From Vicinamibacteria bacterium (GTDB lineage: Bacteria; Acidobacteriota; Vicinamibacteria; Vicinamibacterales; JAENWD01): a stretch of 64,000 nucleotides of DNA. Shown piece after piece: positions 3,234-20,700 of the stretch. Under the pieces are notes generated by a model that was given only the letters and a program-made list of their open reading frames with translations, was not told the origin of the DNA and searched no databases. Numbering within the stretch: position 1 is the first letter of the stretch; every line of letters starts with the position of its first letter. The stretch is taken from assembly GCA_963743245.1 (NCBI GenBank), contig CAVUPP010000011.1:514473-578472 (forward strand), written 5' to 3'. The position numbers and the translations under genes are program-made.

Positions 3234-3314
3234 AAGGCCTCCCAGGGGGTACTGCGCAAACGACGCTCGAATTGGCTCATGCGGCTGGGGTAAGCTGCGG
3301 GCGGACCGACGCTG

Positions 3315-5936: not shown

Positions 5937-5961
5937 GCGCCATACTACGGGACAGCCCACA

Positions 5962-7429: not shown

Positions 7430-7437
7430 GCCGTCGC

Positions 7438-7527
7438 TCAGCGGCCGCAGCCGGCGTGAGCGACCACATACCACAACACGATGACGCTGAACGGAATGCC
7501 TAGCAGCCAGCCGACGATGTACCGCAT
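7438..7527 (-). CDS. 29-aa single-TM micro-protein (hypothetical)
   Basis: Manual find, below the ORF-track size cut-off. ATG 7527 is preceded by GGAGGA. Product MRYIVGWLLGIPFSVIVLWYVVAHAGCGR. The stop lies 8 nt upstream of the DUF1003 start. Confidence 0.35.
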   Translation of the reverse strand: MRYIVGWLLGIPFSVIVLWYVVAHAGCGR

Positions 7528-7767
7528 GGATCCTCCAAGTGCGGCGATGCCGCACGATTCAGTGGAGGAGGTGGCAAGAAGGATGCCCCACGATGACGGG
7601 TCCGGTGTAGCAGTCGGAGCGACGAGATCGCTCCATCTCTGTGCACTTTCAGCAATGGGTGACGGCGCATGCTGCCGCGTCGCGCAGAATGTGCAACGGC
7701 CGTGGCAGGAATTACCTGCATGATCGGTGAGGGATCGTCGCTGATTCCAGCCAGCTGCCCGTGCTGC

Positions 7768-10700
7768 TCAGTCAAACGCCAGGACGGACGGCAGCGGGCC
7801 CGCGCCGAGTCTCAAGAGCACGTACCCGATCCCCGACAGGCCGTCGAAGAATCCAGGATTGATCACCTGCGGCACGTCAGTCGGATGAACACGGAACTCC
7901 GGCGCGTGTCGAAGCGCCTCGAGCGCCTGTTCACCTGCGGCGGCGTCGAGGTCCGGACGCCCGAGCAGGCTCGACGCACGCCGCAGGATGTCGAAGCGCC
8001 CGAAGCCTCCGCAGCAGACGTGATCGACGCTCTCTGGCTGTGGCCGTGCAGTCGTCTCCAACGCAGCGTTCAGTTCGTCCAGAACGGCGGGCATCTCGGC
8101 CGCGAGCGCAAGCCGCGCGAGCGCAATGCCAGGCGCACCGTGGCACCAGCTGGTCATGAACGCGGGCGAATCCGATTCGCGGCGATAGTCGATCCAGTTC
8201 CCGACGGATGGCACGTACGCAGCGCGCTCGAACTCGACCGCCTTTCGCGCGGCATCGATCAGATGGGCGCCGCCAGTCACCGCGTGCAGGCGAGCCAGCG
8301 CGTACGCGATTCCTGACGCGCCGTGCGAGAAGCCCGCGAGGGGGCGCGACGCGAATGTGCACGGCCAGCCGCCGGTATGCGGACCATCCAGGAGCTGATG
8401 GCTGCAGAGATGGCGCGCGCACGCAGATGCGTGCTCGAGAATCGACGTCAATGGCCGGGCCCGGTGAAGGGCGAGCACGCCGAGAATGGCGCCCGCGGAT
8501 CCGCCGATGACGTCGAACCCGCCATCCGCATCGATGGTGTCCGCAGCCACGGATCCGGCCAGCGCTTCGGCGTCGTCCAGCAGCGACGGCTCCTCCCGCC
8601 ACTCTGCGACTCGACTGAGAGCGTAGAGGATGCCACCGACACCTTCGGCGATCCCGAGCCCGGCACGGCGGACGAATTGCCGCGTGGCGTCTCGGTCGCG
8701 CAGCGTCTCACGAAGCGGCTGGAGTGCTCGGTCCATCGTCTCGCGATACCGGCCGTGCCCCGTCACCCGATCGCAGGCGGCCAGGAACAGCGCCACACCA
8801 GTCCGTCCGCCATAGAGACCGTCCGTCACGGGCTGCAACTGATAGCGGCCGATCTGAGGCAGATGCGTGAAGCCTTTCCAGCTCAGACTGCCGTCCGGAT
8901 TGTCGATAGCCTTGGACGCAATCCTGTCCGCTATCGCGAGCGCCGCTTCCGTGAATACCAGGCACGAGTGTGCGGACGCGGCCTGCATGGCAGCGACGTT
9001 CGCGAAAGCACCCCGATCACCACTCGGACCCACAATCTGTGAGGTTTCGAAATGGGACTCACCACGCGCGCGCCAGGCGTGCACGCTTGCTTCGATGAGC
9101 CGCACCTGCAGCTCGAGGCCTGCCTCGCTCATCGATTCCAACTGCGCGGCGACCTGGTCGTATCCGCTTCGCTCGAAGAAGCGTGGCACGACGACCTCGC
9201 CGTCGCAGCAGAGACTCGTGCCGGCTGCGATGGCGTCGAACCGCGGAAAATCGCCGCGTTCGAGCACGTCGCGCTCCGCCCGGATGACCGGCCAGCTATC
9301 TGCGTCGCTGTCGTTCAGGTAGCCGCGCCAGACGCGCTCGAGCTCGATGCTGCGATCGCAGCCGTTCCGCAGATACTCGGGCGTCAGAACGTGGCGCAGC
9401 ATGTGGCCGTAGTGTTCGGTACGGCGGAACACATACCGAATGGACTGACGGCTGAAAGCGGCGAGTGGACCGCCTTCTGCCAGCAGCGCCGGCCGATGTC
9501 GGACGATGAGCCGGTAGATTTCGCGAAAGCCGTCAACCAGTTCGCCAAGGTAGTCCGCGGGCGAAAGGGCCGTCCCGTCGAGCATGGCAGCGTTCGCCTG
9601 CGAGGGAAGGGCGACAGGCTCGTAATACACGTCCACATCGTCGGTATTGACGTCCTTCCAGCGCGCCACGGGCGCAGGTGTCTCCTGGGGACCGATGCCT
9701 CCGAGCGCGCTGATGTCGCACGGTGTCGTTGCCTGGGGCGCTTCCCAGTGAGGCAGCATGCCGACTCGAACCACCGAGTCCCAGAACGCCTGGTCAGAGA
9801 CGGGACGATCGCGCTCCGGGACCATCACTGTCTCCAGATCGATGAGGACAGGATGCTCTCCCGCGGCGACGACGTTCTCGTAATGACAGTCGGTGCCCAA
9901 CACCACGTGCAGGAGCGCGAGCAGCATGCCTGCACGCCTGTAGAATCGAGACGCCTTCGCCGCATCCGCACAAGGCCGCGGGTCGATCCATCGCACCCAA
10001 CCGTGATCGCCGCAGGTGAGTGTGGCGGCAGCATCGAGGGCCACTGACAGTCCCTGCTGATTGCACCAGTCAACGAGCTCTGCGAAGGCCCGATCGATCT
10101 CGACCGGACGTGGCTTGTAGGCCAGCACGAGCCCGTTTGCGAATGTCACCCTCATCACCGACCGGCCGCGCTGGTGCGGATCCGAGAGCCCCACGCGTAG
10201 ACCGACGACGCCGCCAGGCGACGCGCCCGGCGTGAGATCGAAGGCCGTCGCGATGGCAGGTGCATCGTCTCGAAGGGCGGACTGGAACTCCACACAGTGC
10301 TCGACCCAACCCTCGACGAGCGTTGACGTGAGCCGGCCGAGCACGGGGTACGACTCGAAGAACGGCAGCAGATCCGCAGACAGCAGTTGCGTGATGAACG
10401 CGTCGTAGTGATGGTGGCGGCCCCGGCCCGTTGCACCTACGAGCGTGTTCAGCAAGCTGTGCCCAGCCGGCCGGAACGACGAGAACTCCGCCAGCAGACT
10501 GAGCGCGCAGGTTTGCGCGAGACGATCGAGCAGTCCGATTTCGAGCGAACGGTACGCCTCGTCGCTCAGGCATCCGCGCGGTAGCTCGTTCCACAGCGAC
10601 TGTGGACTTCCGAGCGCGCGATGCAGGCGCCGTCTGGCCCCGAAGACGATCGGATGCAGCGCATCCTCGAACGGGCGCGGACGTTCGAGGTTCCGGCAGA

Positions 10701-11028
10701 TGATGCCGGGAGGGTGTTGCCGATACTCAGCGGTCGAGTCCAACAGATCGACGAGCACATCCAGCCATGGCGGCGACGGCGCGGGAGCATCCCCGTGCGC
10801 CAAGACGCCGCGCACGCGTAACTCTGTCAACCCGTCGATCGTCAATCGTCGAAGGAACAGATCCTGGTCGGCGCCCGCCACGACGCGCTGCCAGCGTGCG
10901 ACACGCGCATCGCTCTCCTCGCTCGCCGCAGTGAGTGGTTCCGTTGTGTCTTGGTGGAGCGCGAGACGTTCCCAGAGGGAGAGCGATCGGTCGGCGATTC
11001 GCCGCACGCGAGCCGTTGCCGCGCTCAT
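7768..11028 (-). CDS. lanM: class II lanthipeptide synthetase LanM, ProcM-like (three-Cys zinc site)
   Basis: 1086 aa. The C-terminal LanC-like cyclase carries GFSHGASGIAYAL, SWCHGAPGIALARL and VDHVCCGGFGRFDIL (CCG instead of the usual CHG). The ~650-aa N-terminal region has the size of a LanM dehydratase domain. Its ATG overlaps the upstream ORF stop (ATGA). Confidence 0.95.
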   Translation of the reverse strand: MSAATARVRRIADRSLSLWERLALHQDTTEPLTAASEESDARVARWQRVVAGADQDLFLRRLTIDGLTELRVRGVLAHGDAPAPSPPWLDVLVDLLDSTAEYRQHPPGIICRNLERPRPFEDALHPIVFGARRRLHRALGSPQSLWNELPRGCLSDEAYRSLEIGLLDRLAQTCALSLLAEFSSFRPAGHSLLNTLVGATGRGRHHHYDAFITQLLSADLLPFFESYPVLGRLTSTLVEGWVEHCVEFQSALRDDAPAIATAFDLTPGASPGGVVGLRVGLSDPHQRGRSVMRVTFANGLVLAYKPRPVEIDRAFAELVDWCNQQGLSVALDAAATLTCGDHGWVRWIDPRPCADAAKASRFYRRAGMLLALLHVVLGTDCHYENVVAAGEHPVLIDLETVMVPERDRPVSDQAFWDSVVRVGMLPHWEAPQATTPCDISALGGIGPQETPAPVARWKDVNTDDVDVYYEPVALPSQANAAMLDGTALSPADYLGELVDGFREIYRLIVRHRPALLAEGGPLAAFSRQSIRYVFRRTEHYGHMLRHVLTPEYLRNGCDRSIELERVWRGYLNDSDADSWPVIRAERDVLERGDFPRFDAIAAGTSLCCDGEVVVPRFFERSGYDQVAAQLESMSEAGLELQVRLIEASVHAWRARGESHFETSQIVGPSGDRGAFANVAAMQAASAHSCLVFTEAALAIADRIASKAIDNPDGSLSWKGFTHLPQIGRYQLQPVTDGLYGGRTGVALFLAACDRVTGHGRYRETMDRALQPLRETLRDRDATRQFVRRAGLGIAEGVGGILYALSRVAEWREEPSLLDDAEALAGSVAADTIDADGGFDVIGGSAGAILGVLALHRARPLTSILEHASACARHLCSHQLLDGPHTGGWPCTFASRPLAGFSHGASGIAYALARLHAVTGGAHLIDAARKAVEFERAAYVPSVGNWIDYRRESDSPAFMTSWCHGAPGIALARLALAAEMPAVLDELNAALETTARPQPESVDHVCCGGFGRFDILRRASSLLGRPDLDAAAGEQALEALRHAPEFRVHPTDVPQVINPGFFDGLSGIGYVLLRLGAGPLPSVLAFD

Positions 11029-12080
11029 TGTTGGCCGGTGATCGGATCGTTCGAGAACCAGTTGTGCCCGAAGCCGAGGTAGACCTTGACCTCGGGACCA
11101 TGGTCCGGATGGTAGGCGAGCTTGATGTGATTGATGGTACGCCAGACCATACTCGTAGCTCTGCCGCGAAACAGCAGATCACCGAGCGCAAGGTTGCCGG
11201 CCCATGCGCCGCCGGCGCGGCTTTCAGGTGTGAAGCCCGGCCAGGTGAGCAGGGAGTGTGCCTTCTCACGGCTTGCGAGGCCGCGCTCGGCGAGCAGATC
11301 GAACAGCGCCCGCCAGCGCGGCAGATTGTCGGTTTCGCGCCGCACGTAGAACTCCACACCGACCTTGTCACGAACGCAGGTGTCGACGTCAAGGTCCAGC
11401 AGGACCTCTGAATCCGCGATTTCCGCAATCGCTTCGACCAGCGGCACCAGCGTGCCTGCGGGATCGTGCCAGCCGATCGCATCGAGGTACGGCGCCACCA
11501 ACGTCACCGGGAACCGATCGAGGACGAGCCGGGTGGCGCTTCCGGGCCGCCCTGGCATCAACCCCATGTGCGCAAAGCGCGCTCCCGGCGGCAGTGCCAG
11601 CGCGCACCGCTCCAGCACGCCGCAAGGCAGGCGTGCGCGATAGCCGTCGAGTTCACCAGCGTCCGCAATCGCGGCGATATCGCACGCGTCAAGAGGCTGG
11701 TCGGTGTGAAGCTCGAGAAACAGGATCGGCGTCGGCGCCGCAGGCGGCGGGTTATCGAGATCGAACTCGAGGAAGATCAATCTGACGCGCGAATGAAGCG
11801 GATTGGATGGGTCCGCGACGGCGTCGCAGACTCGCCGGACTGTGCGCCACGCCGGATGCACCAGAAGCGCCGGCGAAAATTCAGGATTCGAATAGGGTAG
11901 ACGGACGAAGAAATCGACGTTGAGCTCGTCGTCGTGCAGCCGCACTTCGAGGCCGGCCAGCGAGCACGGAGGCAGCTGTCGGGCTAGTGTCCGGATGCGA
12001 GTCAGCGCACCCGGCGTCGCGATCGCCGCAGGCAGGTGCGGTGCGACGAGGGCCACGTAGCCCTCCATGGAGATGTCCAT
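11025..12080 (-). CDS. uncharacterised 351-aa protein translationally coupled to LanM; candidate tailoring enzyme with a possible PT-barrel/ABBA-like fold
   Basis: Intact ORF with AGGTGA 7 nt before the ATG and an ATGA overlap with lanM. No rSAM CxxxCxxC, P-loop, GxSxG, SAM-MTase, LanB/C/D/P/I or TM motifs. There are ten strand-like segments in five pairs: GLEVRLH/NVDFFVRL, RVRLIFLEFDL/PILFLELH, RFAHMGLMP/TRLVLDRF, EVLLDLDV/KVGVEFYVRR, HIKLAY/EVKVYLGF. The pairs are separated by amphipathic helical stretches. Confidence 0.85.
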   Translation of the reverse strand: MDISMEGYVALVAPHLPAAIATPGALTRIRTLARQLPPCSLAGLEVRLHDDELNVDFFVRLPYSNPEFSPALLVHPAWRTVRRVCDAVADPSNPLHSRVRLIFLEFDLDNPPPAAPTPILFLELHTDQPLDACDIAAIADAGELDGYRARLPCGVLERCALALPPGARFAHMGLMPGRPGSATRLVLDRFPVTLVAPYLDAIGWHDPAGTLVPLVEAIAEIADSEVLLDLDVDTCVRDKVGVEFYVRRETDNLPRWRALFDLLAERGLASREKAHSLLTWPGFTPESRAGGAWAGNLALGDLLFRGRATSMVWRTINHIKLAYHPDHGPEVKVYLGFGHNWFSNDPITGQQ

Positions 12081-12107
12081 CGATTGTCACCTGCCCGGTG
12101 AGTGCTG

Positions 12108-12135
12108 TCCGCGACCGGGGCAACCCGGTCGCGGA
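12108..12135 (-). promoter_or_regulatory. GC-rich stem-loop between the precursor genes and the modification genes (attenuator or mRNA-stability element)
   Basis: Perfect 12-bp inverted repeat TCCGCGACCGGG-(4 nt)-CCCGGTCGCGGA inside the 76-nt gap between the lanA1 stop (12157) and the 351-aa ORF start (12080). No U-tract follows it. Confidence 0.6.
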
Positions 12136-12156
12136 ACAGACCACGAATCTCCGGCG

Positions 12157-12342
12157 TCAGCAGCAGCCAAACAGCGTCGTCCACGCGCCGGTGCAGCCGT
12201 CGCTGGTCGCCTGCTTCGGTCGGCCACCCGCCACCTGCGCGAGCTGTGCATCGCTCAGCTCTTCGATTAAGTTCTTCTTGTTCTGCATCAACACGACGTT
12301 CACGTCGTCGGCGCTGAAGTGGTAGTCGTCCACGACCCTCAC
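12157..12342 (-). CDS. lanA: lanthipeptide precursor A1 (5'-truncated Nif11-type leader, GG cleavage motif)
   Basis: 61 aa: MRVVDDYHFSADDVNVVLMQNKKNLIEELSDAQLAQVAGG | RPKQATSDGCTGAWTTLFGCC. The core has 3 Cys and 5 Ser/Thr. GTG start; the weak SD makes the exact start uncertain. Confidence 0.85.
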   Translation of the reverse strand: MRVVDDYHFSADDVNVVLMQNKKNLIEELSDAQLAQVAGGRPKQATSDGCTGAWTTLFGCC

Positions 12343-12379
12343 ACCTCGATCGCGGACGACAACCGTTTGCGCGTCGAGT

Positions 12380-12677
12380 TCAGCAGGCGCCGAAGAGCGT
12401 CGTCCATGCGCTACCGCAGCCGTCCTTGGTCGCTGGCGGACGGCCGCCCGCGACCTGGGCGAGCTGGGCCTCGCTCAGTTCGCCGAGCGGATTCCTCTTG
12501 TTCTGCATCAGGACCGACGTCCACATCGTCTGCGGTGAACTGGTAGCCGTTGTCCTTGCCCACGCGGATGACCGACTGCGTAAAGGCGTTCTGATCCGTG
12601 ATGTTCTTGAGCTGGTCCTGCAGCTTCGCGTCACCCATGACCTTCGCCAGAAACTGATTGAGATTGGCCTGACTCAT
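12380..12677 (-). CDS. lanA: lanthipeptide precursor A2 with a full Nif11 leader; frame-interrupted by one extra nucleotide as assembled
   Basis: Frame 1 (12677 -> ~12515) reads MSQANLNQFLAKVMGDAKLQDQLKNITDQNAFTQSVIRVGKDNGYQFTADDVDV. The homologous continuation VLMQNKRNPLGELSEAQLAQVAGG | RPPATKDGCGSAWTTLFGAC* is in the next frame and stops at 12380. The span is 298 nt, so removing one G gives 297 nt = 98 aa + stop. GGAGGA lies upstream of the ATG. Confidence 0.85.
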
Positions 12678-12736
12678 GTTTTTCTCGTCCTCCGAAGCTC
12701 TAGTGTCCGATCCCGGTCGTTCGTAACGCGTCCGTC

Positions 12737-13273
12737 CTACTGCGCACCCCAGGGCCGCCGCTGCATCTCCGAGAACCTGAGCCCGGCCATGGATACATTC
12801 GCCATGAGATGCGGCGCGAGTTCATCCACGTCTTCCACGTTTTCATCGAGTTGCAGGCGTGGCGTACCGAGGTGACTCGTCGTTGTCCGGAGCCGATCGG
12901 CAAGGAACACGGCCAGCGCTCGATAGAAGCGCGCGGCGAATCCCACGTCGTCTCGCAGCTTTGCGGAGAGCGTCGCCCGGGGAATCGCGCCGACTTTTGA
13001 CTCGACTTCGGCGCGCACGCTCGCCACCGGTGGCCGAGCATCCACGAACGAGATCTCGCCCACGACGTCGCCTGCCTTGAGGACCGCAATCCTCGGCGCA
13101 GCTGGCGTGTGGACAACGAGCGCCCCGTCCAGCACGAAGTAGAGCCACTCGGTGGCCTTGCCCTGTTCGATGAGCTGATCCCCGGGGGCAAGCGTCATCT
13201 TCCGGCCGCTCCGGATCATCCACTCGAGGTCCCGGTCGTCGAGGATGCCGAGGAAATACAGTGCTCGTCTCAC
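12737..13273 (-). CDS. cyclic-nucleotide-binding domain protein (bacteriocin-transport-associated type)
   Basis: ORF 12737..13678 trimmed to GTG 13273, with GAGGA 6 nt upstream, 14 nt after the ABC stop. 178 aa. cNMP-binding beta-roll ..GDQLIEQGKATEWLYFVLDGALVV..KAGDVVGEISFVDARPPVASVRA.. Confidence 0.85.
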   Translation of the reverse strand: MRRALYFLGILDDRDLEWMIRSGRKMTLAPGDQLIEQGKATEWLYFVLDGALVVHTPAAPRIAVLKAGDVVGEISFVDARPPVASVRAEVESKVGAIPRATLSAKLRDDVGFAARFYRALAVFLADRLRTTTSHLGTPRLQLDENVEDVDELAPHLMANVSMAGLRFSEMQRRPWGAQ

Positions 13274-13287
13274 GATGTGTCCTCGCG

Positions 13288-15390
13288 TCAGGCGGTCTGT
13301 CTGCGGGCCAGGTCCGCAAACGGTCCTTCCTGTCGCATCAAATCCTGATACGTGCCTTGCTGGACGATCACGCCTCGGTCGAGGACGTAGATGTAGTCTG
13401 CATGAACGATCGTGCTGAGCCTGTGGGCGATGACGACCCGCGTGGCCTTCAGGCTCTCGAGGCTGTGACTGACGAGTGCCTGTGTCTCGTTGTCGAGTGC
13501 GCTCGTCGCCTCGTCGAACAGCAGCAGCGACGGCTTTCTGACAATCGCACGGGCGATCAGGACACGCTGCCGCTGACCACCCGACAAGCCGCTGCCGCCT
13601 TCGCCGAGCAGTGTGTGCATGCCCATGGGCATGTTCTCGATGTCGCGTTCGAGGCCCGCCATTTTTGCCGCGGTCCACGCGTCGTCCAGCGTCAGATAGG
13701 CGCTCGCTCCCGCGATGTTCTTGTAGAGCGAGTCGGCGAGAAGCCGTCCGCTTTGCAGCACTACGCCGATTTGCCGGCGTACGGCTTTGATATCGAGCGC
13801 TGACTGACTCCGGCCGTCGTACTTGACCTCGCCGGAGTCGGGCGCCTCGAATCCCATCAGCAGCCGGAAGAGCGTGGATTTGCCGCTGCCAGAGGGTCCG
13901 ACGATGGCGACGAACCTGCCGGCCGGGATATGCATCGTGATATCGCGCAGCACGAGCGGCGCGCCGGGGGCGTAGCGGAAGTTGACGTTCAAGACGTCGA
14001 TCGCACCGGTCAGGACGCCGGGGTCGGGCCTGCCGACGTCAACTTCCGGCACCGCTGAAAGGATGGGCTGCGCCCGTTCATACAGCGGGACGAGTGCCAG
14101 CAATCTGACTACCGCCGATCCGAGACCGAGCGCAGCCATCTGGAACTGCGCAAACGCGACATTGAAGGCGACGAATCCCCCAGTTGAGAGCTGGCTCTCT
14201 CCATGCGCGTTCAGCAGCCGCACGGTTGCCCAATAGACGACGGCAGCGCTGAGCACGGGCGCCACCGACGTGAACACCGCGTACGCGATCGACACCCGCC
14301 GCGCCCGCGCCGCGATCTGCTTCTTCCTGCTGAAGGCTGACGCCCACGCGGTAAACGCGCGCTCCTCGGCGGCCGCCACGCGCAGCTTCGAGATCCCGTT
14401 CACGAATTGCAGGAGCATCCCCGAGAGACGGCCCCCGATCGCGATCGTTTCGCGCTCCAAGCCGACCTGCACGTATCCGGTGAAGACCGTCACCAGCACC
14501 ATCACGAGGGCGAAGCACGCCGCCAGGAAGGCCAGGATGCCGCTGTAATAAAAGAGCAGCCCGAACGTGAAGATCGAAAAGACGCCTGCGAGCACGGTGG
14601 AGATGGCCGCTCCGGTCAGGACTTGACGCATCGCCGTAATGCTCAGACTTCTCGTCGCAAGGTCACCCGCCGCATAACGCCGGAAAAACGGTACCGGCAG
14701 TGCCAGCAGGCGATCCCACACCGCGGGCTGCAGCGAGGCGTCGATCTTGCCCTCCAGCCGTCGAACCGCAAAGCTCTGAGCCACCTGGAACATCGACGCG
14801 CCCACTGCCGCCACGGCCATCAATACAGTCAAGACGCGTACCTGGCCAGTGTCGGCACGTGGGATGACCGCATCGAAGAGAATGCCGGTCAAGACTGGCA
14901 GCGCCGTGGCCAGCGCACCGGCTGCGAGCCCCGTCATGGCGACGGTCGCGAGATCGCGCCCCAATCCCCTGAGACCGAACCGGAGCAGGTCGAGCCCTGT
15001 GACCGCCCGGGGCGGAAGGGGCCGATAGAAGCACCACGCAAACGGCTGGAGTGATGCCGCAACCGATTCAGTGAGCGGCGTGTGGCTGCCGGTCAGCGGA
15101 TCGTACAGGCGGTAGCGGCGGGGCGATACGGGCAGCAGCGCAACCGGGTTGCCATTGCTCTCGCGGCGGCCAATCATCGGGCCGACGTCTTCACTCCACC
15201 ACCCCTCCCTGAGTGCCACGACCCGTGTCCTGACGCCCGACGCCGACGCGATCGCCACGAGCGGATCGGCGCCGCCAGTCCTTGCCGGATCGGTGTTCGC
15301 CCGGAACTCGATCCCCGCCCGGCGTCCGACCTCGCGGCATGCCAGCAGCCACGGATCGCCGACGGCCGTCTCGGGCGATGTCGTGGACAT
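13288..15390 (-). CDS. ABC exporter (permease + ATPase), NHLM-bacteriocin type without a catalytic peptidase Cys
   Basis: ORF 13288..15936 trimmed to ATG 15390 (MSTTSPETAVGDPW..), which overlaps the upstream stop by 1 nt. 700 aa with a ~150-aa N-terminal extension and 6 TM. Walker A GPSGSGKST, signature LSGGQRQR, Walker B LLLFDEATSALD. Confidence 0.9.
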   Translation of the reverse strand: MSTTSPETAVGDPWLLACREVGRRAGIEFRANTDPARTGGADPLVAIASASGVRTRVVALREGWWSEDVGPMIGRRESNGNPVALLPVSPRRYRLYDPLTGSHTPLTESVAASLQPFAWCFYRPLPPRAVTGLDLLRFGLRGLGRDLATVAMTGLAAGALATALPVLTGILFDAVIPRADTGQVRVLTVLMAVAAVGASMFQVAQSFAVRRLEGKIDASLQPAVWDRLLALPVPFFRRYAAGDLATRSLSITAMRQVLTGAAISTVLAGVFSIFTFGLLFYYSGILAFLAACFALVMVLVTVFTGYVQVGLERETIAIGGRLSGMLLQFVNGISKLRVAAAEERAFTAWASAFSRKKQIAARARRVSIAYAVFTSVAPVLSAAVVYWATVRLLNAHGESQLSTGGFVAFNVAFAQFQMAALGLGSAVVRLLALVPLYERAQPILSAVPEVDVGRPDPGVLTGAIDVLNVNFRYAPGAPLVLRDITMHIPAGRFVAIVGPSGSGKSTLFRLLMGFEAPDSGEVKYDGRSQSALDIKAVRRQIGVVLQSGRLLADSLYKNIAGASAYLTLDDAWTAAKMAGLERDIENMPMGMHTLLGEGGSGLSGGQRQRVLIARAIVRKPSLLLFDEATSALDNETQALVSHSLESLKATRVVIAHRLSTIVHADYIYVLDRGVIVQQGTYQDLMRQEGPFADLARRQTA

Positions 15391-17540
15391 CAGCTCGTCC
15401 TGATGAGACGGGCATACGCCCCGTCTTTCGCGACCAGCGCGTCGTGCGTCCCGCGCTCCACGACGACGCCTCGCTCGAGCACGATGATCTCGTCGCAATC
15501 TCTGATCGTGCTGAGCCGATGAGCGACTACGAGACAGGTGCACCGGCGCCGGCGGATGGCGTCGATCACGCGTTGCTCGGTGAGCGAATCGAGCGCACTC
15601 GTCGCCTCGTCGAGCACGAGGATGCGGGGATTCCGGGTGAGGGCGCGCGCGATTTCCAGCCGCTGGCGTTGTCCGCCGCTGAAGTTCCGGCCCTGCTCCT
15701 CGATCTGATGGCCGTAGCCTGAGGGGTACTCCAGGATGTCGTCGTGGATGCAGGCGTCCCTGGCGGCCTGGATGACATCGGCCTCGTCGATGCGCTCGTC
15801 CCACAGCGTGAGATTGTCGCGAATCGTGCCTTCGAAGAGCGTGATGTCTTGATCGACCAGCGCGATGGATCGTGACACGCGGCTGCGCGGCACCTGGCTG
15901 CGCGGTTGGCCGTCGAACAGCACGTCGCCCTCCCACACCTTGTACAAGCCAGTCACAAGCCGCGCGAGCGTCGACTTGCCGCTGCCCGACTCTCCAACGA
16001 GCGCCACCTGCTGTCCTGCCTTCACCGCAAGGTTGAAGTCAGTGATTAGCGGCGGATCCAGGCGGCTGTACCCGAACGTCACACCGCGTACGTCCACGGC
16101 GCCTTGCAGCGGTTCGATGGGTTCTGCCGCATCCGCCGAAGGTCTGGCCAACGGATCCCGTGGATACCGCAGGACATCATCGAGACGCGTGAGGTCGCCG
16201 CCGGCCTCCTGCAGCGCTCCTCCCAGCAACACCAGCCGATTGGCCGGGTCGATGAAGCTCTGCATCAAGCTCTGAAACGCAATCAACATCCCCATCGTCA
16301 GGACGCCATCGATGATCCGGACGCTGCCGATGCCGACAATGACCGCGGCGTTGAGGGATGTGAGGAGCGGCGGCACGGCCGACAGATACTCGGCGACGGC
16401 TCCCAGGTGACCTTCCGAGGTCACCACTTTGGCGTGATAGCCGGCCCATGTGCTGAAGAACTCCGATTCAGCGCCGGAGGCTTTGAGCGTCTCGAGCGTC
16501 TGCAGGCCAGCCATCGACGCGCCGACCAACTTGCCGCGCTCTTGCAGCAGGCGCAGGCTCGTGTCGCGCCGCCGGCGGGCCAGCAGCCGCAGAACAACGA
16601 GATTCGTCAGGGCAACGGCGACGCCGATCGCTGTGAGCATCGGGTCGTACCGGAACATCAGGGCGGCGAAGAATCCCACCATGGCGATGTTGACCAGGCT
16701 GGTCGCGAGATCGCCTGACAGCAGGACGGCGACACTGTCGTTGATCTCGACGCGTGACACGAGATCGCCACCGAAGCGCTGCGCGAAGAACTCGACGGGC
16801 AGCTGCAACAGGTGCCAGAAGAACCGTCGCGATCCGTCAACCGCGAGTTTGAGCTCCAGTCGCAGCAATCCCCGCTGTTGCAGGTAGGTCAGTGCTCCTC
16901 GCGCGATGGCGGTCACGACCATGGCCGCGACGAGCGGCGTCAACCAGGCTGGCGCACCGGGAACCAGGATGTGGTCGATGAAGATGCGTGAGAACGCCGG
17001 CACCAGCAAGCCCGGCAGGACCAGCGCCAGCGTCGCGAGCGCGAGAAACGCGAGTGCTGCGCGGCTGCCCGGCAGCCGGCTGGCGAGTGATCGCAGCACC
17101 GAGGGCTTGGCGCCGCCGGGCGCGAATGCAGGTCCACGTTCGAAGCCCAGGACCACGCCCGTGAACGATTCGTCGAACTCGCGATCCGGCACTGCTCGCG
17201 GACCAAACGCCGGGTCGTTGATATAGGCGAGGCCGGCGCCGAAGCCTTCGACCACGACGAAGTGGTTGAAGTTCCAGAACGCAATCATTGGGGCGGGGAA
17301 GTCCCGCAGCTGGTCGGCGTCCTTCGAATATCCCTTGCAGAGCAGGCCGAACGAGCGTGCAGCCTTGACGATGTTCAGGGCCTTGCTGCCATCGCGCGAG
17401 ACGCCGCAGGCCACGCGAAGCTCTTCGAGCGGCACGAACCGTCCGAAGTAGCCGAGCACCATTCCCAAGGCGGCGGCCCCACATTCGGCCGCCTCCATCT
17501 GTATGACGGTGGGCGTGCGCGCGCGCTGACGCTTCGGCAC
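15390..17540 (-). CDS. lanT: bifunctional C39-peptidase / ABC exporter (LanT/AMS type; NHLM peptidase/ATP-binding protein)
   Basis: 716 aa. The N-terminal C39 domain has the Cys in VIQMEAAECGAAALGMVL and the His in FWNFNHFVVVEG. 6 TM. Walker A GESGSGKST, FSGGQRQR, ILVLDEATSALD. Confidence 0.95.
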   Translation of the reverse strand: MPKRQRARTPTVIQMEAAECGAAALGMVLGYFGRFVPLEELRVACGVSRDGSKALNIVKAARSFGLLCKGYSKDADQLRDFPAPMIAFWNFNHFVVVEGFGAGLAYINDPAFGPRAVPDREFDESFTGVVLGFERGPAFAPGGAKPSVLRSLASRLPGSRAALAFLALATLALVLPGLLVPAFSRIFIDHILVPGAPAWLTPLVAAMVVTAIARGALTYLQQRGLLRLELKLAVDGSRRFFWHLLQLPVEFFAQRFGGDLVSRVEINDSVAVLLSGDLATSLVNIAMVGFFAALMFRYDPMLTAIGVAVALTNLVVLRLLARRRRDTSLRLLQERGKLVGASMAGLQTLETLKASGAESEFFSTWAGYHAKVVTSEGHLGAVAEYLSAVPPLLTSLNAAVIVGIGSVRIIDGVLTMGMLIAFQSLMQSFIDPANRLVLLGGALQEAGGDLTRLDDVLRYPRDPLARPSADAAEPIEPLQGAVDVRGVTFGYSRLDPPLITDFNLAVKAGQQVALVGESGSGKSTLARLVTGLYKVWEGDVLFDGQPRSQVPRSRVSRSIALVDQDITLFEGTIRDNLTLWDERIDEADVIQAARDACIHDDILEYPSGYGHQIEEQGRNFSGGQRQRLEIARALTRNPRILVLDEATSALDSLTEQRVIDAIRRRRCTCLVVAHRLSTIRDCDEIIVLERGVVVERGTHDALVAKDGAYARLIRTS

Positions 17541-17543
17541 GAG

Positions 17544-18359
17544 CTACCTCGATGGCGGGGCGTCAAGACCGGGAACGACGAGGCTCAACGGACGCTGCTC
17601 GCGGATCACGATCTCGGCATGGCAGGGCACTGTCTGCGCCGGCAGCGTCGCGTCGCGGCTCACGAGGGCGTACACCGCGATGCGCGGTTCTGCCCCGCGT
17701 TGAGCGCCGTCTACGATTCCAGGTGCTGTTGCAACGAACTCGACCCGTGCTGCCAGCACGTGCGCGTCCTCACCGGCGCCGACGCGAATCGTTACGGACA
17801 TCCCGCGTCGCACCTGTTGCGCCCGTGCGGGTTCGAGATACAGCACGGCCTCCGGCCGATCGTGCTCGGGGCGCAGCGTGACGATCGGGCTTCCGGCTGG
17901 AACGGTCGCCCCCACCGACACCGCCACGCGATCCACGCGTCCGGTGTAGGGACTGACCACTCCTCCCAACGAGTCCAACTGCTGCCCGAGGAGCGCGAGC
18001 TCTTTCGGGTTCGTTCGCGCCGCTTGCAACCGATCGAGGAGCTGAGGCGTCGCGACGATGGCAATGACCTGCCCGGCGGCGACGCGGTCGCCGATCCCGG
18101 CGCGAAGGTCCGAGACCTGGCCTGCGAGGGGCGAGGGAATGGACCGGACGCCGCCTGACGCGACCAGGATGCCGGATGCCTCGACCGTGGTGGTGATACG
18201 CCCCCAGTAACCCCACCCGAGAGCGGCACCAAGACAGAGCAGCAGGGCAGTCAACGCGAGCCACGTGCGAGGCGCCGTGACCCGAAGGAGCTGATCGAGC
18301 TGCTCGGGCGACGACATGCGGTCGAGGGCCGCCTTCCGGAAAATCCGGTTTGCATCCAT
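17544..18359 (-). CDS. HlyD-family secretion adaptor (NHLM bacteriocin secretion protein type)
   Basis: ORF 17544..18398; the likely start is ATG 18359 (MDANRIFRKAALDRMSSPEQLDQLLRV..). Single TM LALTALLLCLGAALGW, then a lipoyl/beta-barrel region. A 3-nt gap separates it from the next gene. Confidence 0.85.
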   Translation of the reverse strand: MDANRIFRKAALDRMSSPEQLDQLLRVTAPRTWLALTALLLCLGAALGWGYWGRITTTVEASGILVASGGVRSIPSPLAGQVSDLRAGIGDRVAAGQVIAIVATPQLLDRLQAARTNPKELALLGQQLDSLGGVVSPYTGRVDRVAVSVGATVPAGSPIVTLRPEHDRPEAVLYLEPARAQQVRRGMSVTIRVGAGEDAHVLAARVEFVATAPGIVDGAQRGAEPRIAVYALVSRDATLPAQTVPCHAEIVIREQRPLSLVVPGLDAPPSR

Positions 18360-18468
18360 CGTTCGTCCGGGCGCGGCAGCGGGAAGAGGCCGTCCCACCG
18401 CGAATCGCGGAGGAGCTTATCCGGCGCCCTGCGCCCACGCAAGGCATCCGCGAGTTGATTGATGTACC

Positions 18469-20700
18469 GTGATGCGCATGCCCGGCTCACCTCGTCGCTC
18501 CCGCGCGGCCGTTCTCGCTGTCGCGGCTGCATGGATCGTTGTGGCCATGGCGGCCCGCATCGTGACACGCGCCCAGGAGCCGCGTCCGGCACCGGTGCCG
18601 GGTCCGCCCGTGGCGCGTCAGGACAACGTTCGGGAAACACTTCATGGCGTCGAGCTCGTGGACCCCTACCGCTGGCTCGAAGACCAGCAGGCTCCCGACA
18701 CGCGCGCCTTCATCGATCATCAGAATCAGTACGCGCACAGTCTGCTCGATTCGCTTCCCGGCCTCGCGGCCATTCGGTCGCGTCTCGCGGCATTGATGCG
18801 GCGGGACACCCAGGGGGCGCCGATCGAGCGCGCCGGCCGCTACTTCACGCTACGGCGTGGTGCGGACGATCCCCTGCCGATCCTCTACGTCCGAGATCGC
18901 CGTGATGGCACGGACGCCATCCTGCTGGACCCGCGGCCGTTGAGCGCCGACCACACGACCAGCCTGTCGCTGGAAGACATCGCCATGAACGGCCGTGTGC
19001 TGGTCTACGGCGTCCGGACTGGCGGTGAAGACGAAACCGAGCTCCGTGTGAAGGATGTGGACGCGCGACAGGACCTGCCCGACCGCCTGCCGCGCGCCCT
19101 GTATCGCGGTGTCACCCTCCAGCCGGATGGCAAGGCGTTCTATTACGCCCGGCAGGATCGCGCGACCGGAATCCGGATCCATCGCCACGTGCTGGGGACG
19201 CCGATCGATCGGGACGACGAGATCTTCGGCAAGGGATTCGGGCCGAGCGACTGGATCGACGCGCGCGTGTCAGAAAACGGGCGTCATATCGTGTTCACCG
19301 TGGCGCACGGGTGGGCCAGCACCGAGGTCTTCGTGCAGTCGCTCGACCCTTCGGCCCCACTCTCCGACCCAGCGCCTCCTGGTGTCGAGTCCCGGGCAGT
19401 GCCTGTCGTCCGCGGGATCGACGCCCATGTGACTGCGCAATTCGCTGGCGACCGGCTGATCGCACAGACCGATTGGCACGCGCCGCTGGGGCGGATCGTG
19501 GAGATCGATCTGTCGGATCCCTCACCGGACAAGTGGCGCGGCATCGTGCCATCGGGTCAGGATGCGCTCGATGCCTACGCGCTCGTTGGCGGACGCCTGG
19601 TCGTCCAACGCCTGCACGACGTGACGGCCCGCCTCGATGTGTACGGACTGGATGGCACGCCGCAAGGCGAAATCGCACTGCCCACGCGCGGGACGGTCAG
19701 GAACCTGTCCGGCCGCTGGGACGCGGACGAGCTCTTCTTCGACTTCGAGTCGTACACCACACCCGGATCGACGTACCGGGCGACGGTGGCGCAGCGGACC
19801 ACGGCACCGTTCTGGCGCCCGGTGATTCCCTTTGACCCTGCGCGCTACGAGACGAAGCAGGTCTGGTTCCCCTCCAAAGATGGCACCAGGGTCCCGATGT
19901 TCGTCGTGCACCGTGTCGGGCTGGAACTGAACGGCCACCAACCCACGCTGTTGTACGGCTACGGCGGCTTCGCCGTGAACATCACGCCCTGGTTCTCGGC
20001 GGACGTGGCGTGGTGGCTCGAACAGGGTGGAGTGTTTGCGGTCGCGAATCTACGGGGCGGGAATGAGTTTGGCGAGTCGTGGCACCGAGCCGGCATGCTG
20101 GAGCACAAGCAGCACGTCTTCGACGATTTCATCGCTGCCGCATCGTGGCTCGTCGATCAGCACTACACCGCGCCGGACCGCCTCGCTATTCGCGGTGCCA
20201 GCAATGGCGGTCTCCTGATGGGGGCCGTGCTGACCCAGCGGCCCGACTTGTTCCGCGCGGTGCTCTGCGAGTTTCCGGACCTCGACATGGTGGGGTACTG
20301 GCGGTTTCCCAACAACAATCCGCCGGCGTTGCTGGAGTACGGCGACGCGTCCAAGCCCGATCAGTTCAGGTATCTCCTCGCGTACTCACCGTATCAGCAC
20401 GTCACGCCCGGCACGAAGTATCCCGCGGTCCTGCTGATGACCGGAGATGCCGACACGCGCGTGCCGCCGCTGCAGGCCCGCAAGATGACGGCACGCCTCC
20501 AGGCCGCCTCTACATCGGGCCGCCCCATCCTGTTGCTGTACGACACGAAGGCCGGCCACGCAGGGGGCCGACCGATCGAGAAGCTCGTCGAGGATCAATC
20601 CCTCGAGCTCGCGTTTCTCTCGTGGCAGCTCGACATGGGCACGGGACCGGCTCGCGCGGCCCAGACGGATCGGGTCGGGGCGCGTCCCGTGGCGCGCTAG
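18469..20700 (+). CDS. prolyl oligopeptidase (S9A family), signal-anchored
   Basis: 743 aa. N-terminal ..LHGVELVDPYRWLED.. Catalytic elbow IRGASNGGLLMG; ..LLMTGDADTRVPP.. and ..KAGHAGG.. Hydrophobic N-terminus AAVLAVAAAWIVVAMAA. Start could be 18469, 18472 or 18478. Confidence 0.9.
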   Translation: MMRMPGSPRRSRAAVLAVAAAWIVVAMAARIVTRAQEPRPAPVPGPPVARQDNVRETLHGVELVDPYRWLEDQQAPDTRAFIDHQNQYAHSLLDSLPGLAAIRSRLAALMRRDTQGAPIERAGRYFTLRRGADDPLPILYVRDRRDGTDAILLDPRPLSADHTTSLSLEDIAMNGRVLVYGVRTGGEDETELRVKDVDARQDLPDRLPRALYRGVTLQPDGKAFYYARQDRATGIRIHRHVLGTPIDRDDEIFGKGFGPSDWIDARVSENGRHIVFTVAHGWASTEVFVQSLDPSAPLSDPAPPGVESRAVPVVRGIDAHVTAQFAGDRLIAQTDWHAPLGRIVEIDLSDPSPDKWRGIVPSGQDALDAYALVGGRLVVQRLHDVTARLDVYGLDGTPQGEIALPTRGTVRNLSGRWDADELFFDFESYTTPGSTYRATVAQRTTAPFWRPVIPFDPARYETKQVWFPSKDGTRVPMFVVHRVGLELNGHQPTLLYGYGGFAVNITPWFSADVAWWLEQGGVFAVANLRGGNEFGESWHRAGMLEHKQHVFDDFIAAASWLVDQHYTAPDRLAIRGASNGGLLMGAVLTQRPDLFRAVLCEFPDLDMVGYWRFPNNNPPALLEYGDASKPDQFRYLLAYSPYQHVTPGTKYPAVLLMTGDADTRVPPLQARKMTARLQAASTSGRPILLLYDTKAGHAGGRPIEKLVEDQSLELAFLSWQLDMGTGPARAAQTDRVGARPVAR

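What the first reader, a model, noticed from the sequence alone, without database searches (positions are those of the whole stretch)
7768..18398. ProcM-type (CCG) class II lanthipeptide operon with Nif11-leader precursors and an NHLM-style export cassette placed first
Eight minus-strand genes are packed head to tail:
- HlyD adaptor (18359->17544), then a 3-nt gap.
- C39-peptidase/ABC exporter (17540->15390), with Cys in QMEAAECGAAALG and His in NHFVVVEG, then a 1-nt overlap.
- Second ABC exporter lacking the Cys (15390->13288), then a 14-nt gap.
- cNMP-binding protein (13273->12737).
- Two precursors (12677->12380 and 12342->12157), then a hairpin.
- 351-aa ORF (12080->11025), then an ATGA overlap.
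- LanM (11028->7768).

The precursor leaders are Nif11-like and end ..LAQVAGG; the cores are 20-21 aa and rich in Cys/Ser/Thr. The LanM cyclase has WCHG plus CCG, the three-Cys zinc site known from ProcM, instead of CHG. The HlyD + two ABC + cNMP-protein set is the transport cassette described for NHLP/Nif11 bacteriocin systems.

Unusual points:
- Transport genes precede the precursors and enzymes.
- An extra enzyme-sized ORF is translationally coupled to LanM.
- No LanFEG/LanI immunity, LanP or LanR/K genes are visible in the flanks.
- The host looks acidobacterial, a phylum from which, to my knowledge, no lanthipeptide has been characterised.
Basis: partly seen in the sequence, partly recalled or inferred. 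Interest (0 to 1): 0.85.

Follow-up and report, generated by a model that had tools for sequence, protein, structure and literature searches.

The report
Predicted prenylated lanthipeptide gene cluster
This is a soil acidobacterial gene cluster for a ring-containing ribosomal peptide (a class II lanthipeptide); its unexplained extra gene encodes a lipid-attaching prenyltransferase of a type first described in 2024-2025, and both precursor genes are damaged in this genome.

Summary
The gene layout is real. HMMs place the 1086-aa protein in LanM (TIGR03897, 798 bits), with a three-Cys CCG zinc site. The two exporters match TIGR03796/03797 above cutoff, and the repaired first precursor matches Nif11 (TIGR03798).

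Corrections:
- lanA1 is not one ORF. It carries an extra C at 12516 that sibling assemblies lack.
- lanA2 lost its 5' part, the Nif11 structured domain, through a 262-nt deletion.
- The HlyD adaptor lacks its coiled coil.

The main addition is the 351-aa ORF coupled to LanM by an ATGA overlap.
- It has no Pfam or NCBIfam hit.
- Its model (pLDDT 86.5) is an alpha-beta-beta-alpha prenyltransferase barrel; the top 20 PDB matches are all aromatic prenyltransferases.
- It is homologous (28% identity, E 5e-37) to the inferred MppC orthologue of Moorena producens. MppC is a leader-dependent prenyltransferase that geranylates a Trp of a LanM-cyclised Nif11 peptide (JACS 2025).
- In relatives it always sits directly upstream of LanM, and one natural fusion to LanM exists.

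The cores share T-x3-C-x3-W-T-x4-5-C with an invariant Trp. The cluster most likely makes a two-ring, Trp-prenylated lanthipeptide.

It is a new member of a known kind. The claim that Acidobacteria are uncharted for lanthipeptides is outdated (Nature 2026).

The parts
17544..18398 (-). HlyD-type membrane-fusion adaptor, short form (284 aa from GTG 18398; alternative ATG at 18359). It lacks the coiled-coil hairpin.
   Evidence: HlyD_3 Pfam hit. TIGR03794 143.9 bits, below the 156.2 cutoff, in two stretches. Alignment to the 418-aa L002 homologue shows a ~120-aa internal gap.
15390..17540 (-). ABC1: peptidase-containing ABC exporter (C39 double-glycine peptidase + permease + ATPase), 716 aa.
   Evidence: TIGR03796 1043 bits (cutoff 853); Peptidase_C39, ABC_membrane and ABC_tran. 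Cys motif at residue 14 and His motif at residue 92.
13288..15390 (-). ABC2: second exporter subunit without a peptidase domain, 700 aa. Its start overlaps the ABC1 stop by 1 nt.
   Evidence: TIGR03797 906 bits (cutoff 709), covering model positions 1-685. Junction read. It lacks the ~250-aa N-terminal extension seen in L002 and L004.
12737..13273 (-). Single-domain cyclic-nucleotide-binding protein, 178 aa, associated with the transport genes.
   Evidence: cNMP_binding 50.3 bits. TIGR03896 120.4 bits (cutoff 161), C-terminal half only. Homologues of 176-182 aa lie beside the exporters in L002 and L004.
12380..12677 (-). lanA1: Nif11-leader precursor, frameshifted by an extra C at 12516. The repaired product is 98 aa with core RPPATKDGCGSAWTTLFGAC after the ..AQVAGG cleavage site.
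   Evidence: Two overlapping ORFs in different frames. L005 has an intact gene with one base fewer. A 98-aa Nif11 gene is called on Logan ERR11592903.
12157..12342 (-). lanA2 remnant. Only the disordered C-terminal part of the leader is kept (..MQNKKNLIEELSDAQLAQVAGG), plus the core RPKQATSDGCTGAWTTLFGCC. The Nif11 structured nucleus, ribosome-binding site and ATG were lost in a 262-nt deletion (junction 12326/12325).
   Evidence: Translation. Three-way DNA alignment with L011 (full 99-aa lanA2) and L005 (same deletion).
12109..12134 (-). GC-rich 11-bp stem-loop in the 76-nt spacer between lanA2 and the prenyltransferase gene. There is no T tract. Its likely role is partial attenuation or stabilisation of the precursor transcript (inferred).
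   Evidence: MFE -39 kcal/mol against -28.5 +/- 3.1 for shuffles, z = -3.33. Identical in L005 and L011, and there is a structured spacer in L004. The consensus scan does not call it a terminator.
11025..12080 (-). lanPT (the 351-aa ORF): MppC-like alpha-beta-beta-alpha (ABBA) peptide prenyltransferase, translationally coupled to LanM by an ATGA overlap.
   Evidence: No Pfam or NCBIfam hit. AF2 model pLDDT 86.5, pTM 0.87, with a ten-strand barrel pattern. The top 20 Foldseek PDB hits are all aromatic prenyltransferases. 27.9% identity, E 5e-37, to the inferred MppC orthologue in a Moorena producens mpp-like cluster. Always directly upstream of LanM in relatives. A natural fusion to LanM exists, P0112. 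All family-wide invariant charged residues are kept.
7768..11028 (-). LanM: class II lanthipeptide synthetase, 1086 aa, with a ProcM-type three-Cys zinc site.
   Evidence: TIGR03897 797.6 bits; DUF4135 400.7 bits; LANC_like 166.1 bits. In the alignment to LicM2 (6st5), the query's VCCGG lies over LicM2's LCHG, and the query's WCHG over LicM2's WCHG.

Best explanation
The region 7768-18398 is a biosynthetic gene cluster for a prenylated class II lanthipeptide from a Vicinamibacteria-type acidobacterium.

**Proposed pathway**
1. A Nif11-leader precursor is made. It has about 78 leader residues ending ELSxAQLAQVAGG and a 20-21-aa core RP..AT.DGC...WTT.FG.C.
2. LanM dehydrates the Thr/Ser residues. 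Its ProcM-type three-Cys zinc site then adds the two Cys residues, giving two (methyl)lanthionine rings. The ring pattern is inferred as Thr5->Cys9 and Thr14/15->Cys20.
3. The 351-aa ABBA prenyltransferase is made in 1:1 coupling with LanM. It binds the leader and transfers a prenyl group to the cyclised core. The acceptor is most likely the invariant Trp13, by analogy with MppC. The donor chain length is unknown.
4. The C39 domain of ABC1 cuts after the double glycine. ABC1/ABC2 and the adaptor export the peptide.

**Shown here:** the family and fold assignments, the synteny, the natural fusion, and the conserved core pattern.

**Inferred:** the order of steps, the acceptor residue, the donor and the ring topology.

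**State of this genome.** As assembled, lanA1 is frameshifted and lanA2 has lost the leader's structured nucleus. The locus therefore may not make the prenylated product unless the frameshift is an assembly error.
For: **Family assignments**
- LanM, the two ABC exporters and the Nif11 leader all score above curated cutoffs.
- The CCG of this LanM aligns over the CHG of LicM2.

**The 351-aa ORF as a prenyltransferase**
- The confident AF2 model shows a five-fold alpha-alpha-beta-beta pattern.
- The top 20 Foldseek PDB hits are all ABBA prenyltransferases: IptA, CloQ, DMATS1, AtaPT, TleC and MpnD, probability 0.99-1.00, TM-score 0.42-0.58.
- BLASTP gives 27.9% identity over 359 aa, E 5e-37, to the 375-aa gene next to an 87%-identical MppE homologue in Moorena producens.
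- MppC is an ABBA prenyltransferase. It geranylates Trp82 of MppM-cyclised MppE and depends on the leader (PMC12715784).
- MppC-like proteins co-localise with LanM (76 of 258) and with Nif11 genes (87 of 258).

**Link to LanM**
- The PT-LanM pair is conserved with a 4-nt overlap in four contexts sharing 47-55% identity and in sibling strains.
- Natural fusions exist: PT-LanM (P0112), PT-methyltransferase and PT-SQHop-cyclase-like domain.

**Catalytic residues and substrate**
- Fourteen charged or aromatic residues that are 92-100% conserved across 121 divergent homologues are all kept in the window protein.
- Trp is invariant in every associated core, including the divergent second precursor of L001.
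Against: - No biochemical data exist for this clade.
The Moorena comparator is an inferred orthologue, chosen because it lies next to the precursor and is the only ORF-X homologue among the three Pfam-less L010 genes compared by BLASTP. Its residue numbering does not match the published W336/F340 directly.
- Identity to solved prenyltransferases is only 11-14% and TM-scores are about 0.5. A profile search of PDB sequences finds nothing.
- Cyanobacterial family members (L009) sit beside cores that have no Trp, so the acceptor residue is not fixed across the family.
- Both precursors are damaged in this window. The adaptor lacks its hairpin.
Confidence: 0.72

Rival explanations
1. In this particular genome the cluster is a decaying, non-producing locus. 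The enzymes are still intact, but neither precursor can give the normal product. lanA1 is truly frameshifted, lanA2 lacks its start and leader nucleus, and the adaptor has lost its coiled coil.
For: - Extra C at 12516, not in a homopolymer run.
- 262-nt deletion in lanA2, shared with L005.
- HlyD internal deletion and sub-cutoff score.
- Only two precursor copies exist in the 64-kb window.
Against: - LanM, the prenyltransferase, ABC1 and ABC2 are full-length open frames with family-typical lengths.
- L005 has an intact lanA1, and a 98-aa Nif11 gene is called at that position on a Logan contig carrying the identical prenyltransferase. The frameshift is therefore very recent or an assembly error.
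- The window comes from a 585-kb metagenome-assembled contig, where single-base indel errors are plausible.
- The short adaptor and the single-domain cNMP protein also occur in relatives (L004).
Confidence: 0.3
2. The truncated lanA2 is a functional short-leader precursor. It keeps the L(X)4L motif and the double-glycine site. LanM would cyclise it and the exporter would cut it, but it would escape prenylation. The cluster would then make a plain lanthipeptide alongside a prenylated one.
For: - The lanA2 remnant keeps ELSDAQLAQVAGG plus an intact core, and the same deletion allele is found in at least two assemblies.
- MppE lacking residues 1-55 is still cyclised by MppM but is not accepted by MppC (PMC12715784).
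Against: - The deletion removed the ribosome-binding site and ATG. The remaining GTG at 12342 has a poor Shine-Dalgarno sequence, and the better-placed GTG at 12333 is not conserved in L005 or L011.
- A sibling strain keeps the full-length gene, so the short form is derived and could simply be neutral damage.
Confidence: 0.2
3. The 351-aa protein is a non-catalytic partner built on a prenyltransferase-like barrel. It would act as a leader-binding chaperone or scaffold for LanM, and the product would be an ordinary unprenylated lanthipeptide.
For: - Tight translational coupling and a natural fusion to LanM.
- No sequence-level match to any solved prenyltransferase.
Against: - Fourteen charged or aromatic residues (E45, D56, E105, D107, R178, R184, D231, E243, K273, R314, H318, K320, K332, Y334) are 92-100% conserved across 121 homologues at 24-38% identity. 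Most of them lie on predicted barrel strands. That is the pattern expected of an active site, not of a scaffold.
- The inferred homologue MppC is catalytically active.
- Other family members are fused to methyltransferase or terpene-cyclase-like domains.
Confidence: 0.06

Closest known systems
mpp cluster of Moorena producens (MppE, MppM, MppC; Saha et al. Org Lett 2025, PMC11791876; Wakeel, McShan and Agarwal JACS 2025, PMC12715784)
   Same: - Nif11-type leader with an L(X)4L motif and a double-glycine end.
- Class II LanM.
- A soluble ABBA prenyltransferase of the same sequence family (28% identity to the inferred MppC orthologue).
- A Trp in the cyclised core.
   Different: - The core here is 20-21 aa with two predicted rings; MppE has a 7-aa, one-ring core (ACWRWSG).
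- The prenyltransferase gene overlaps lanM here. In the Moorena locus it follows the precursor.
- There are no arginase, halogenase, terpene synthase or oxygenase genes here.
- A complete C39/ABC export cassette is present here, whereas the mpp cluster lacks a peptidase-containing transporter.
- The host is an acidobacterium, not a cyanobacterium.
- The acceptor residue and donor are untested here.
ProcM/prochlorosin-type systems and the NHLP/Nif11 bacteriocin export cassette (Haft et al. 2010, BMC Biol 8:70; Zhang et al. 2012, PNAS 109:18361; cited from established knowledge)
   Same: - LanM with CCG in place of CHG at the zinc site.
- Nif11 leaders ending in GG.
- TIGR03794/03796/03797/03896-type transport genes.
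   Different: - Only two near-identical precursors are present, not a large hypervariable set.
- An added prenyltransferase is present.
- The adaptor and the cNMP protein are shortened and score below their curated cutoffs.
Cyanobactin F-family prenyltransferases (PagF, LynF, KgpF and others)
   Same: ABBA barrel fold and prenylation of ribosomal peptide side chains.
   Different: - Cyanobactin enzymes act on leaderless cyclic or linear cores.
- They form a sequence group separate from MppC-like enzymes according to the similarity network in the JACS 2025 supplement.
- No cyanobactin enzyme appeared among the top 50 PDB matches here.
Prenyltransferase-terpene cyclase maturases of RiPPs (Hubrich et al., Chem 2024; paper not held in the library, known to me only from citations and memory)
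   Same: Members of the family found here are fused to SQHop_cyclase_C-like toroid domains (P0093, P0145).
   Different: The window protein is a stand-alone prenyltransferase, and no cyclase gene is nearby.

Membership tests
Class II lanthipeptide synthetase (LanM), ProcM-like CCG subgroup | N-terminal dehydratase domain (DUF4135) plus a C-terminal LanC-like cyclase in one polypeptide. | tested here: met
   PF13575 400.7 bits; PF05147 166.1 bits; TIGR03897 797.6 bits (cutoff 304).
Class II lanthipeptide synthetase (LanM), ProcM-like CCG subgroup | Zinc ligands Cys + Cys-Cys (CCG motif) instead of Cys + Cys-His (CHG). | tested here: met
   WCHG961 and VCCGG1005. The CC pair aligns over the CH of LicM2 (6st5).
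Class II lanthipeptide synthetase (LanM), ProcM-like CCG subgroup | Dehydration and thioether cyclisation of the cognate precursor. | not testable with these tools
   Needs co-expression and mass spectrometry.
Nif11-like leader RiPP precursor (TIGR03798 / PF07862) | A Nif11 N-terminal domain followed by a double-glycine cleavage motif and a core, in one reading frame. | tested here: inconclusive
   - Repaired lanA1: 46.1 bits (cutoff 32.3).
- As assembled, the domain and the core are in different frames.
- lanA2 has no Nif11 hit because the domain is deleted.
NHLP/Nif11 bacteriocin export cassette | A peptidase-containing ABC subunit (TIGR03796) and a second ABC subunit (TIGR03797). | tested here: met
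   1043 and 906 bits, both above their cutoffs.
NHLP/Nif11 bacteriocin export cassette | HlyD-type secretion protein (TIGR03794) and cNMP-binding transport-associated protein (TIGR03896). | tested here: inconclusive
   - Each is the best hit for its protein but scores below the cutoff: 143.9 against 156.2, and 120.4 against 161.
- The adaptor lacks its hairpin.
- The cNMP protein is half-length.
MppC-like leader-dependent RiPP prenyltransferase (ABBA superfamily) | PT-barrel fold: ten antiparallel strands in alpha-beta-beta-alpha repeats. | tested here: met
   AF2 model with pLDDT 86.5 and the expected secondary-structure order. The top 20 Foldseek hits are all ABBA prenyltransferases.
MppC-like leader-dependent RiPP prenyltransferase (ABBA superfamily) | Sequence homology to the characterised enzyme MppC. 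| tested here: met
   27.9% identity over 359 aa, E 5e-37, to L010:10745-11872 in a Moorena producens mpp-like cluster. Caveat: this is an inferred orthologue, not the published sequence itself.
MppC-like leader-dependent RiPP prenyltransferase (ABBA superfamily) | Genomic association with a Nif11 or NHLP precursor and a LanM. | tested here: met
   Natural fusion P0112.
MppC-like leader-dependent RiPP prenyltransferase (ABBA superfamily) | Prenyl transfer to the cyclised core that depends on the leader's structured nucleus and on the L(X)4L motif. | not testable with these tools
   - The L(X)4L motif is present in both leaders (LSEAQL and LSDAQL).
- Activity and leader dependence need assays.

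The most novel reading that the evidence does not exclude
The acidobacterial PT-LanM pair works as an obligate coupled machine, as suggested by the ATGA overlap and the natural single-chain fusion. It would make a two-ring lipolanthipeptide with chemistry different from MppC, either a different donor length or a different acceptor position on the invariant Trp. The recurring leader-truncated lanA2 allele would be a natural way to make an unprenylated partner peptide from the same cluster.
Probability: 0.15. Interest if true: 0.65.

Novelty: new member of a known kind. Interest (0 to 1): 0.4.

Why it matters
- Lipidated macrocyclic peptides are of pharmaceutical interest. The only lanthipeptide prenyltransferase with published biochemistry found in the searchable library is MppC.
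- This locus defines a compact, uncharacterised acidobacterial clade of about 27 close homologues. It has a simple gene set and a conserved two-ring, Trp-containing core, which makes it a convenient second system for testing leader-dependent prenylation.
- Sibling strains naturally carry full-length and nucleus-deleted versions of the same precursor. That is a ready-made test of the leader-recognition rule.
- For annotation, the family behind this ORF is large: 3751 representatives at E <= 1e-3. The window protein and the fusion proteins scanned get no Pfam or NCBIfam match over this domain.

Tried and rejected
- **Known-family scans of the 351-aa ORF.** Pfam and NCBIfam gave no hit.
- **Profile search of PDB sequences with the family alignment.** Only noise, E >= 0.28.
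- **The published MppC sequence.** It is not in the JACS 2025 supplement. I reached an orthologue indirectly through an MppE homologue instead.
- **Mapping the published MppC W336/F340 onto the comparator.** This did not work directly. W315/L319 would fit only with an assumed +21 numbering offset. They align to W293/L297 of the window protein, both invariant in the acidobacterial clade. I treat this only as a hint.
- **Hubrich et al. 2024.** The paper is not held in the library.
- **Prolyl oligopeptidase next door (18469-20700) as a cluster protease.** Rejected as a core component because no related locus has it.
- **The sulfotransferase/TauE pair and the DUF1003 gene downstream.** Likewise not conserved near the cluster in relatives.
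- **Programmed frameshifting in lanA1.** Rejected because the ~98%-identical L005 simply lacks the extra base.
- **Further precursor copies in the 64-kb window.** None found.
- **Consensus scans.** No terminator with a T tract after the precursors and no meaningful promoter in the region. No Rfam family and no tRNA gene in the window.
- **Full-text search for the core motifs.** No paper contains them.

Full report
**1. What is in the sequence**

ORFs lie head to tail on the minus strand between 7768 and 18398. I read the junctions directly:
- HlyD stop TAG, 3 nt, then the ABC1 start GTG.
- ABC1 and ABC2 overlap by 1 nt (TGATG).
- ABC2 stop, then 14 nt containing a GAGGA ribosome-binding site, then the GTG of the cNMP gene.
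- The 351-aa ORF and LanM overlap as ATGA.

G+C is even, about 0.64-0.68, across the whole window. There is no tRNA gene and no Rfam match.

**2. Family assignments for the expected genes**

| Gene | Best match | Score vs cutoff |
|---|---|---|
| LanM, 1086 aa | TIGR03897; also DUF4135 and LANC_like | 797.6 vs 304 |
| ABC1 | TIGR03796; also Peptidase_C39 | 1043 vs 853 |
| ABC2 | TIGR03797 | 906 vs 709 |
| Adaptor, 284 aa | TIGR03794 | 143.9 vs 156.2 (below) |
| cNMP protein, 178 aa | TIGR03896, C-terminal half only | 120.4 vs 161 (below) |

- In the alignment to LicM2 (PDB 6st5), the query's SHG, WCHG and VCCGG lie over LicM2's SHG, WCHG and LCHG. The three-Cys ProcM-type zinc site is therefore real.
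- The adaptor lacks about 120 residues of coiled coil that the 418-aa L002 homologue has.

**3. The precursors are both damaged**

*lanA1* is split between two frames.
- A ~98%-identical Logan assembly, L005, has one base fewer. It reads GACGT-GGTTCTG where the window reads GACGTCGGTCCTG. The extra base is the C at window 12516.
- L005 therefore encodes an intact precursor.
- A second Logan contig carrying the identical 351-aa protein has a 98-aa Nif11 gene called at the same position.
- The extra base is not in a homopolymer run. The tools cannot tell whether it is a real mutation or an assembly error.

*lanA2* is a remnant.
- A JGI contig, L011, carries the identical 351-aa protein and a full 99-aa lanA2.
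- The window and L005 lack 262 nt of it: the ribosome-binding site, the ATG and the structured half of the Nif11 domain. The junction is at 12326/12325.
- What remains is the disordered end of the leader (..MQNKKNLIEELSDAQLAQVAGG) and the core.

No other precursor copy exists in the 64 kb. A strong hairpin follows lanA2 (z = -3.33) and is conserved in the sibling strains.

**4. The 351-aa ORF**

*Distribution and context*
- It has no Pfam or NCBIfam match.
- The word-based search finds only 27 relatives, none with a Pfam domain. The one named organism is Vicinamibacterales.
- Genome hits are labelled Acidobacteriota or Acidobacteria.
- In three independent contexts at 47-55% identity, the gene lies directly upstream of LanM with a 4-nt overlap and next to Nif11 precursors. 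The same holds in the sibling strains.

*Fold*
- An AlphaFold2 model built from 22 homologues is confident (pLDDT 86.5, pTM 0.87). It shows helix-helix-strand-strand repeated five times.
- The first 20 Foldseek PDB matches are all soluble aromatic prenyltransferases (IptA, CloQ, DMATS1, AtaPT, TleC, MpnD). Probabilities are 0.99-1.00 and TM-scores 0.42-0.58.

*Wider family*
- A full profile search finds a large family: 3751 representatives at E <= 1e-3 and 977 at E <= 1e-30.
- Some members are fused to other domains: P0112 (1427 aa) to a complete LanM, P0037 and P0158 to a SAM methyltransferase, and P0093 and P0145 to a squalene-hopene-cyclase-like toroid.
- Across 121 members at 24-38% identity to the window protein, these residues are 92-100% conserved and all are kept here: E45, D56, E105, D107, R178, R184, D231, E243, K273, R314, H318, K320, K332 and Y334. 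Most lie on predicted barrel strands.

**5. Link to known biochemistry**

The literature search found Wakeel, McShan and Agarwal, JACS 2025 (PMC12715784).
- In the Moorena producens mpp cluster, the Nif11-leader peptide MppE (core ACWRWSG) is cyclised by the LanM MppM.
- It is then geranylated at C5 of the Trp82 indole by MppC, an alpha-beta-beta-alpha prenyltransferase.
- MppC needs both the leader's structured nucleus (residues 1-55) and its L(X)4L motif. MppE lacking residues 1-55 is still cyclised but is not prenylated.
- The supplement reports 258 MppC-like UniProt sequences, mainly from Cyanobacteriota, Myxococcota and Pseudomonadota. Of these, 76 lie beside a LanM and 87 beside a Nif11 gene. 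They are separate from cyanobactin prenyltransferases such as PagF.

The MppC sequence is not printed there, so I reached it indirectly.
- I searched with MppE and found an 87%-identical homologue in Moorena producens, then fetched its locus, L010.
- That locus has the LanM, two arginase-type genes, the precursor, a halogenase and a cyclase-like gene. This matches the gene list in Org Lett 2025 (PMC11791876).
- Directly after the precursor lies a 375-aa gene with no Pfam hit. The window protein aligns to it end to end: 27.9% identity over 359 aa, 126 bits, E 5e-37.
- I therefore place the 351-aa ORF in the MppC-like family of leader-dependent RiPP prenyltransferases.

**6. Predicted product**

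Cores from the window and its relatives align as RP..AT.DGC...WTT.FG.C. Even the divergent second precursor of L001 (..TIINCDNYWTFDYGPCV) keeps T-x3-C-x3-W-T-x4-5-C.

The simplest reading is:
- two methyllanthionine rings, and
- prenylation of the invariant Trp after cyclisation.

The second point is by analogy with MppC and is inferred, not shown. Cyanobacterial relatives in L009 sit next to cores with no Trp and no Cys, so the acceptor residue varies across the family. Cleavage after the double glycine and export by the ABC1/ABC2 pair follow from the family assignments.

**7. State of the locus in this genome**

As assembled, no precursor with an intact full-length leader exists.
- If the extra C is an assembly error, lanA1 is the normal substrate.
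- If it is real, the locus has just lost its prenylatable substrate.
- By analogy with MppE lacking residues 1-55, the lanA2 remnant could at most be cyclised and cut. Its translation signals are poor.

**8. Novelty and score**

- ProcM-type LanM, Nif11 precursors and the NHLM export cassette form a combination already covered by curated HMM families (Haft et al. 2010, from established knowledge).
- Prenylated class II lanthipeptides with Nif11 leaders were described in 2024-2025.
- Acidobacterial lanthipeptide pathways were reconstituted in 2026 (PMC13083261).
- What is new is a compact, uncharacterised acidobacterial clade of this system, with its own conserved core and a prenyltransferase gene that overlaps lanM. 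No paper in the library contains the core motifs.
- I rate it a new member of a known kind, interest 0.4.

Noticed in passing
window 18469-20700 (+): An S9 prolyl oligopeptidase gene (743 aa) is transcribed divergently from the adaptor gene, about 70 nt away. The cores start with Arg-Pro-Pro or Arg-Pro-Lys, so trimming after Pro is conceivable. None of the related loci has this gene.
   Followed up: partly
window 4893-5936 (+), 5890-6879 (+), 6833-7555 (-): A sulfotransferase, a TauE/SafE-type exporter and a DUF1003 membrane protein lie just downstream of LanM. They are not conserved near the cluster in relatives, so they are probably unrelated.
   Followed up: partly
L009 618-4583 (Allocoleopsis sp. 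MAG): Two tandem cassettes, each a Nif11-type precursor followed by a homologue of the 351-aa protein (one fused to a SAM methyltransferase). No LanM lies within the 5.5-kb contig. The precursor C-termini have neither Cys nor Trp and end in ..PTVANY and ..ATPVTY. This suggests a different acceptor residue, possibly Tyr or the C-terminus, and non-lanthipeptide substrates.
   Followed up: no
P0112, P0093, P0145, P0037, P0158: Natural fusions of the prenyltransferase domain: to a full LanM (1427 aa), to squalene-hopene-cyclase-like toroid domains (711 and 732 aa), and to SAM methyltransferases (636 and 557 aa).
   Followed up: partly
window 17544-18398 and 13288-15390; L002, L004: The window adaptor lacks the ~120-aa coiled coil present in L002. 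L004 has an even shorter 214-aa version. ABC2 in L002 and L004 has a ~250-aa N-terminal extension that is absent here. L002 also has an outer-membrane factor (OEP) gene, which the window cluster lacks.
   Followed up: partly
L004 9465-9830: This precursor has two double-glycine sites..LALVAGGLKQYGG followed by RPAATSDGC... This hints that the mature N-terminus is the Arg-Pro, or that cleavage happens in two steps.
   Followed up: no
L001 9648-9953: A second precursor in the 2.4-Mb Acidobacteriota MAG has a very different core (LPKNIGTIINCDNYWTFDYGPCV). It still keeps the Thr/Cys/Trp/Thr/Cys spacing. The LanM in that locus is only 868 aa.
   Followed up: no
cluster members P0179 and P0180 (ENA contig of 23,919 nt): In another near-identical assembly the LanM is called as two pieces (319 + 785 aa). 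This suggests that frameshift-type errors or mutations are common in assemblies of this population, which bears on how to read the lanA1 frameshift.
   Followed up: no
L010 (Moorena producens) 2782-3651: A 289-aa pentapeptide-repeat protein overlaps the start of the LanM gene in the mpp-like cluster. It occupies the position that the prenyltransferase gene has in the acidobacterial loci.
   Followed up: no
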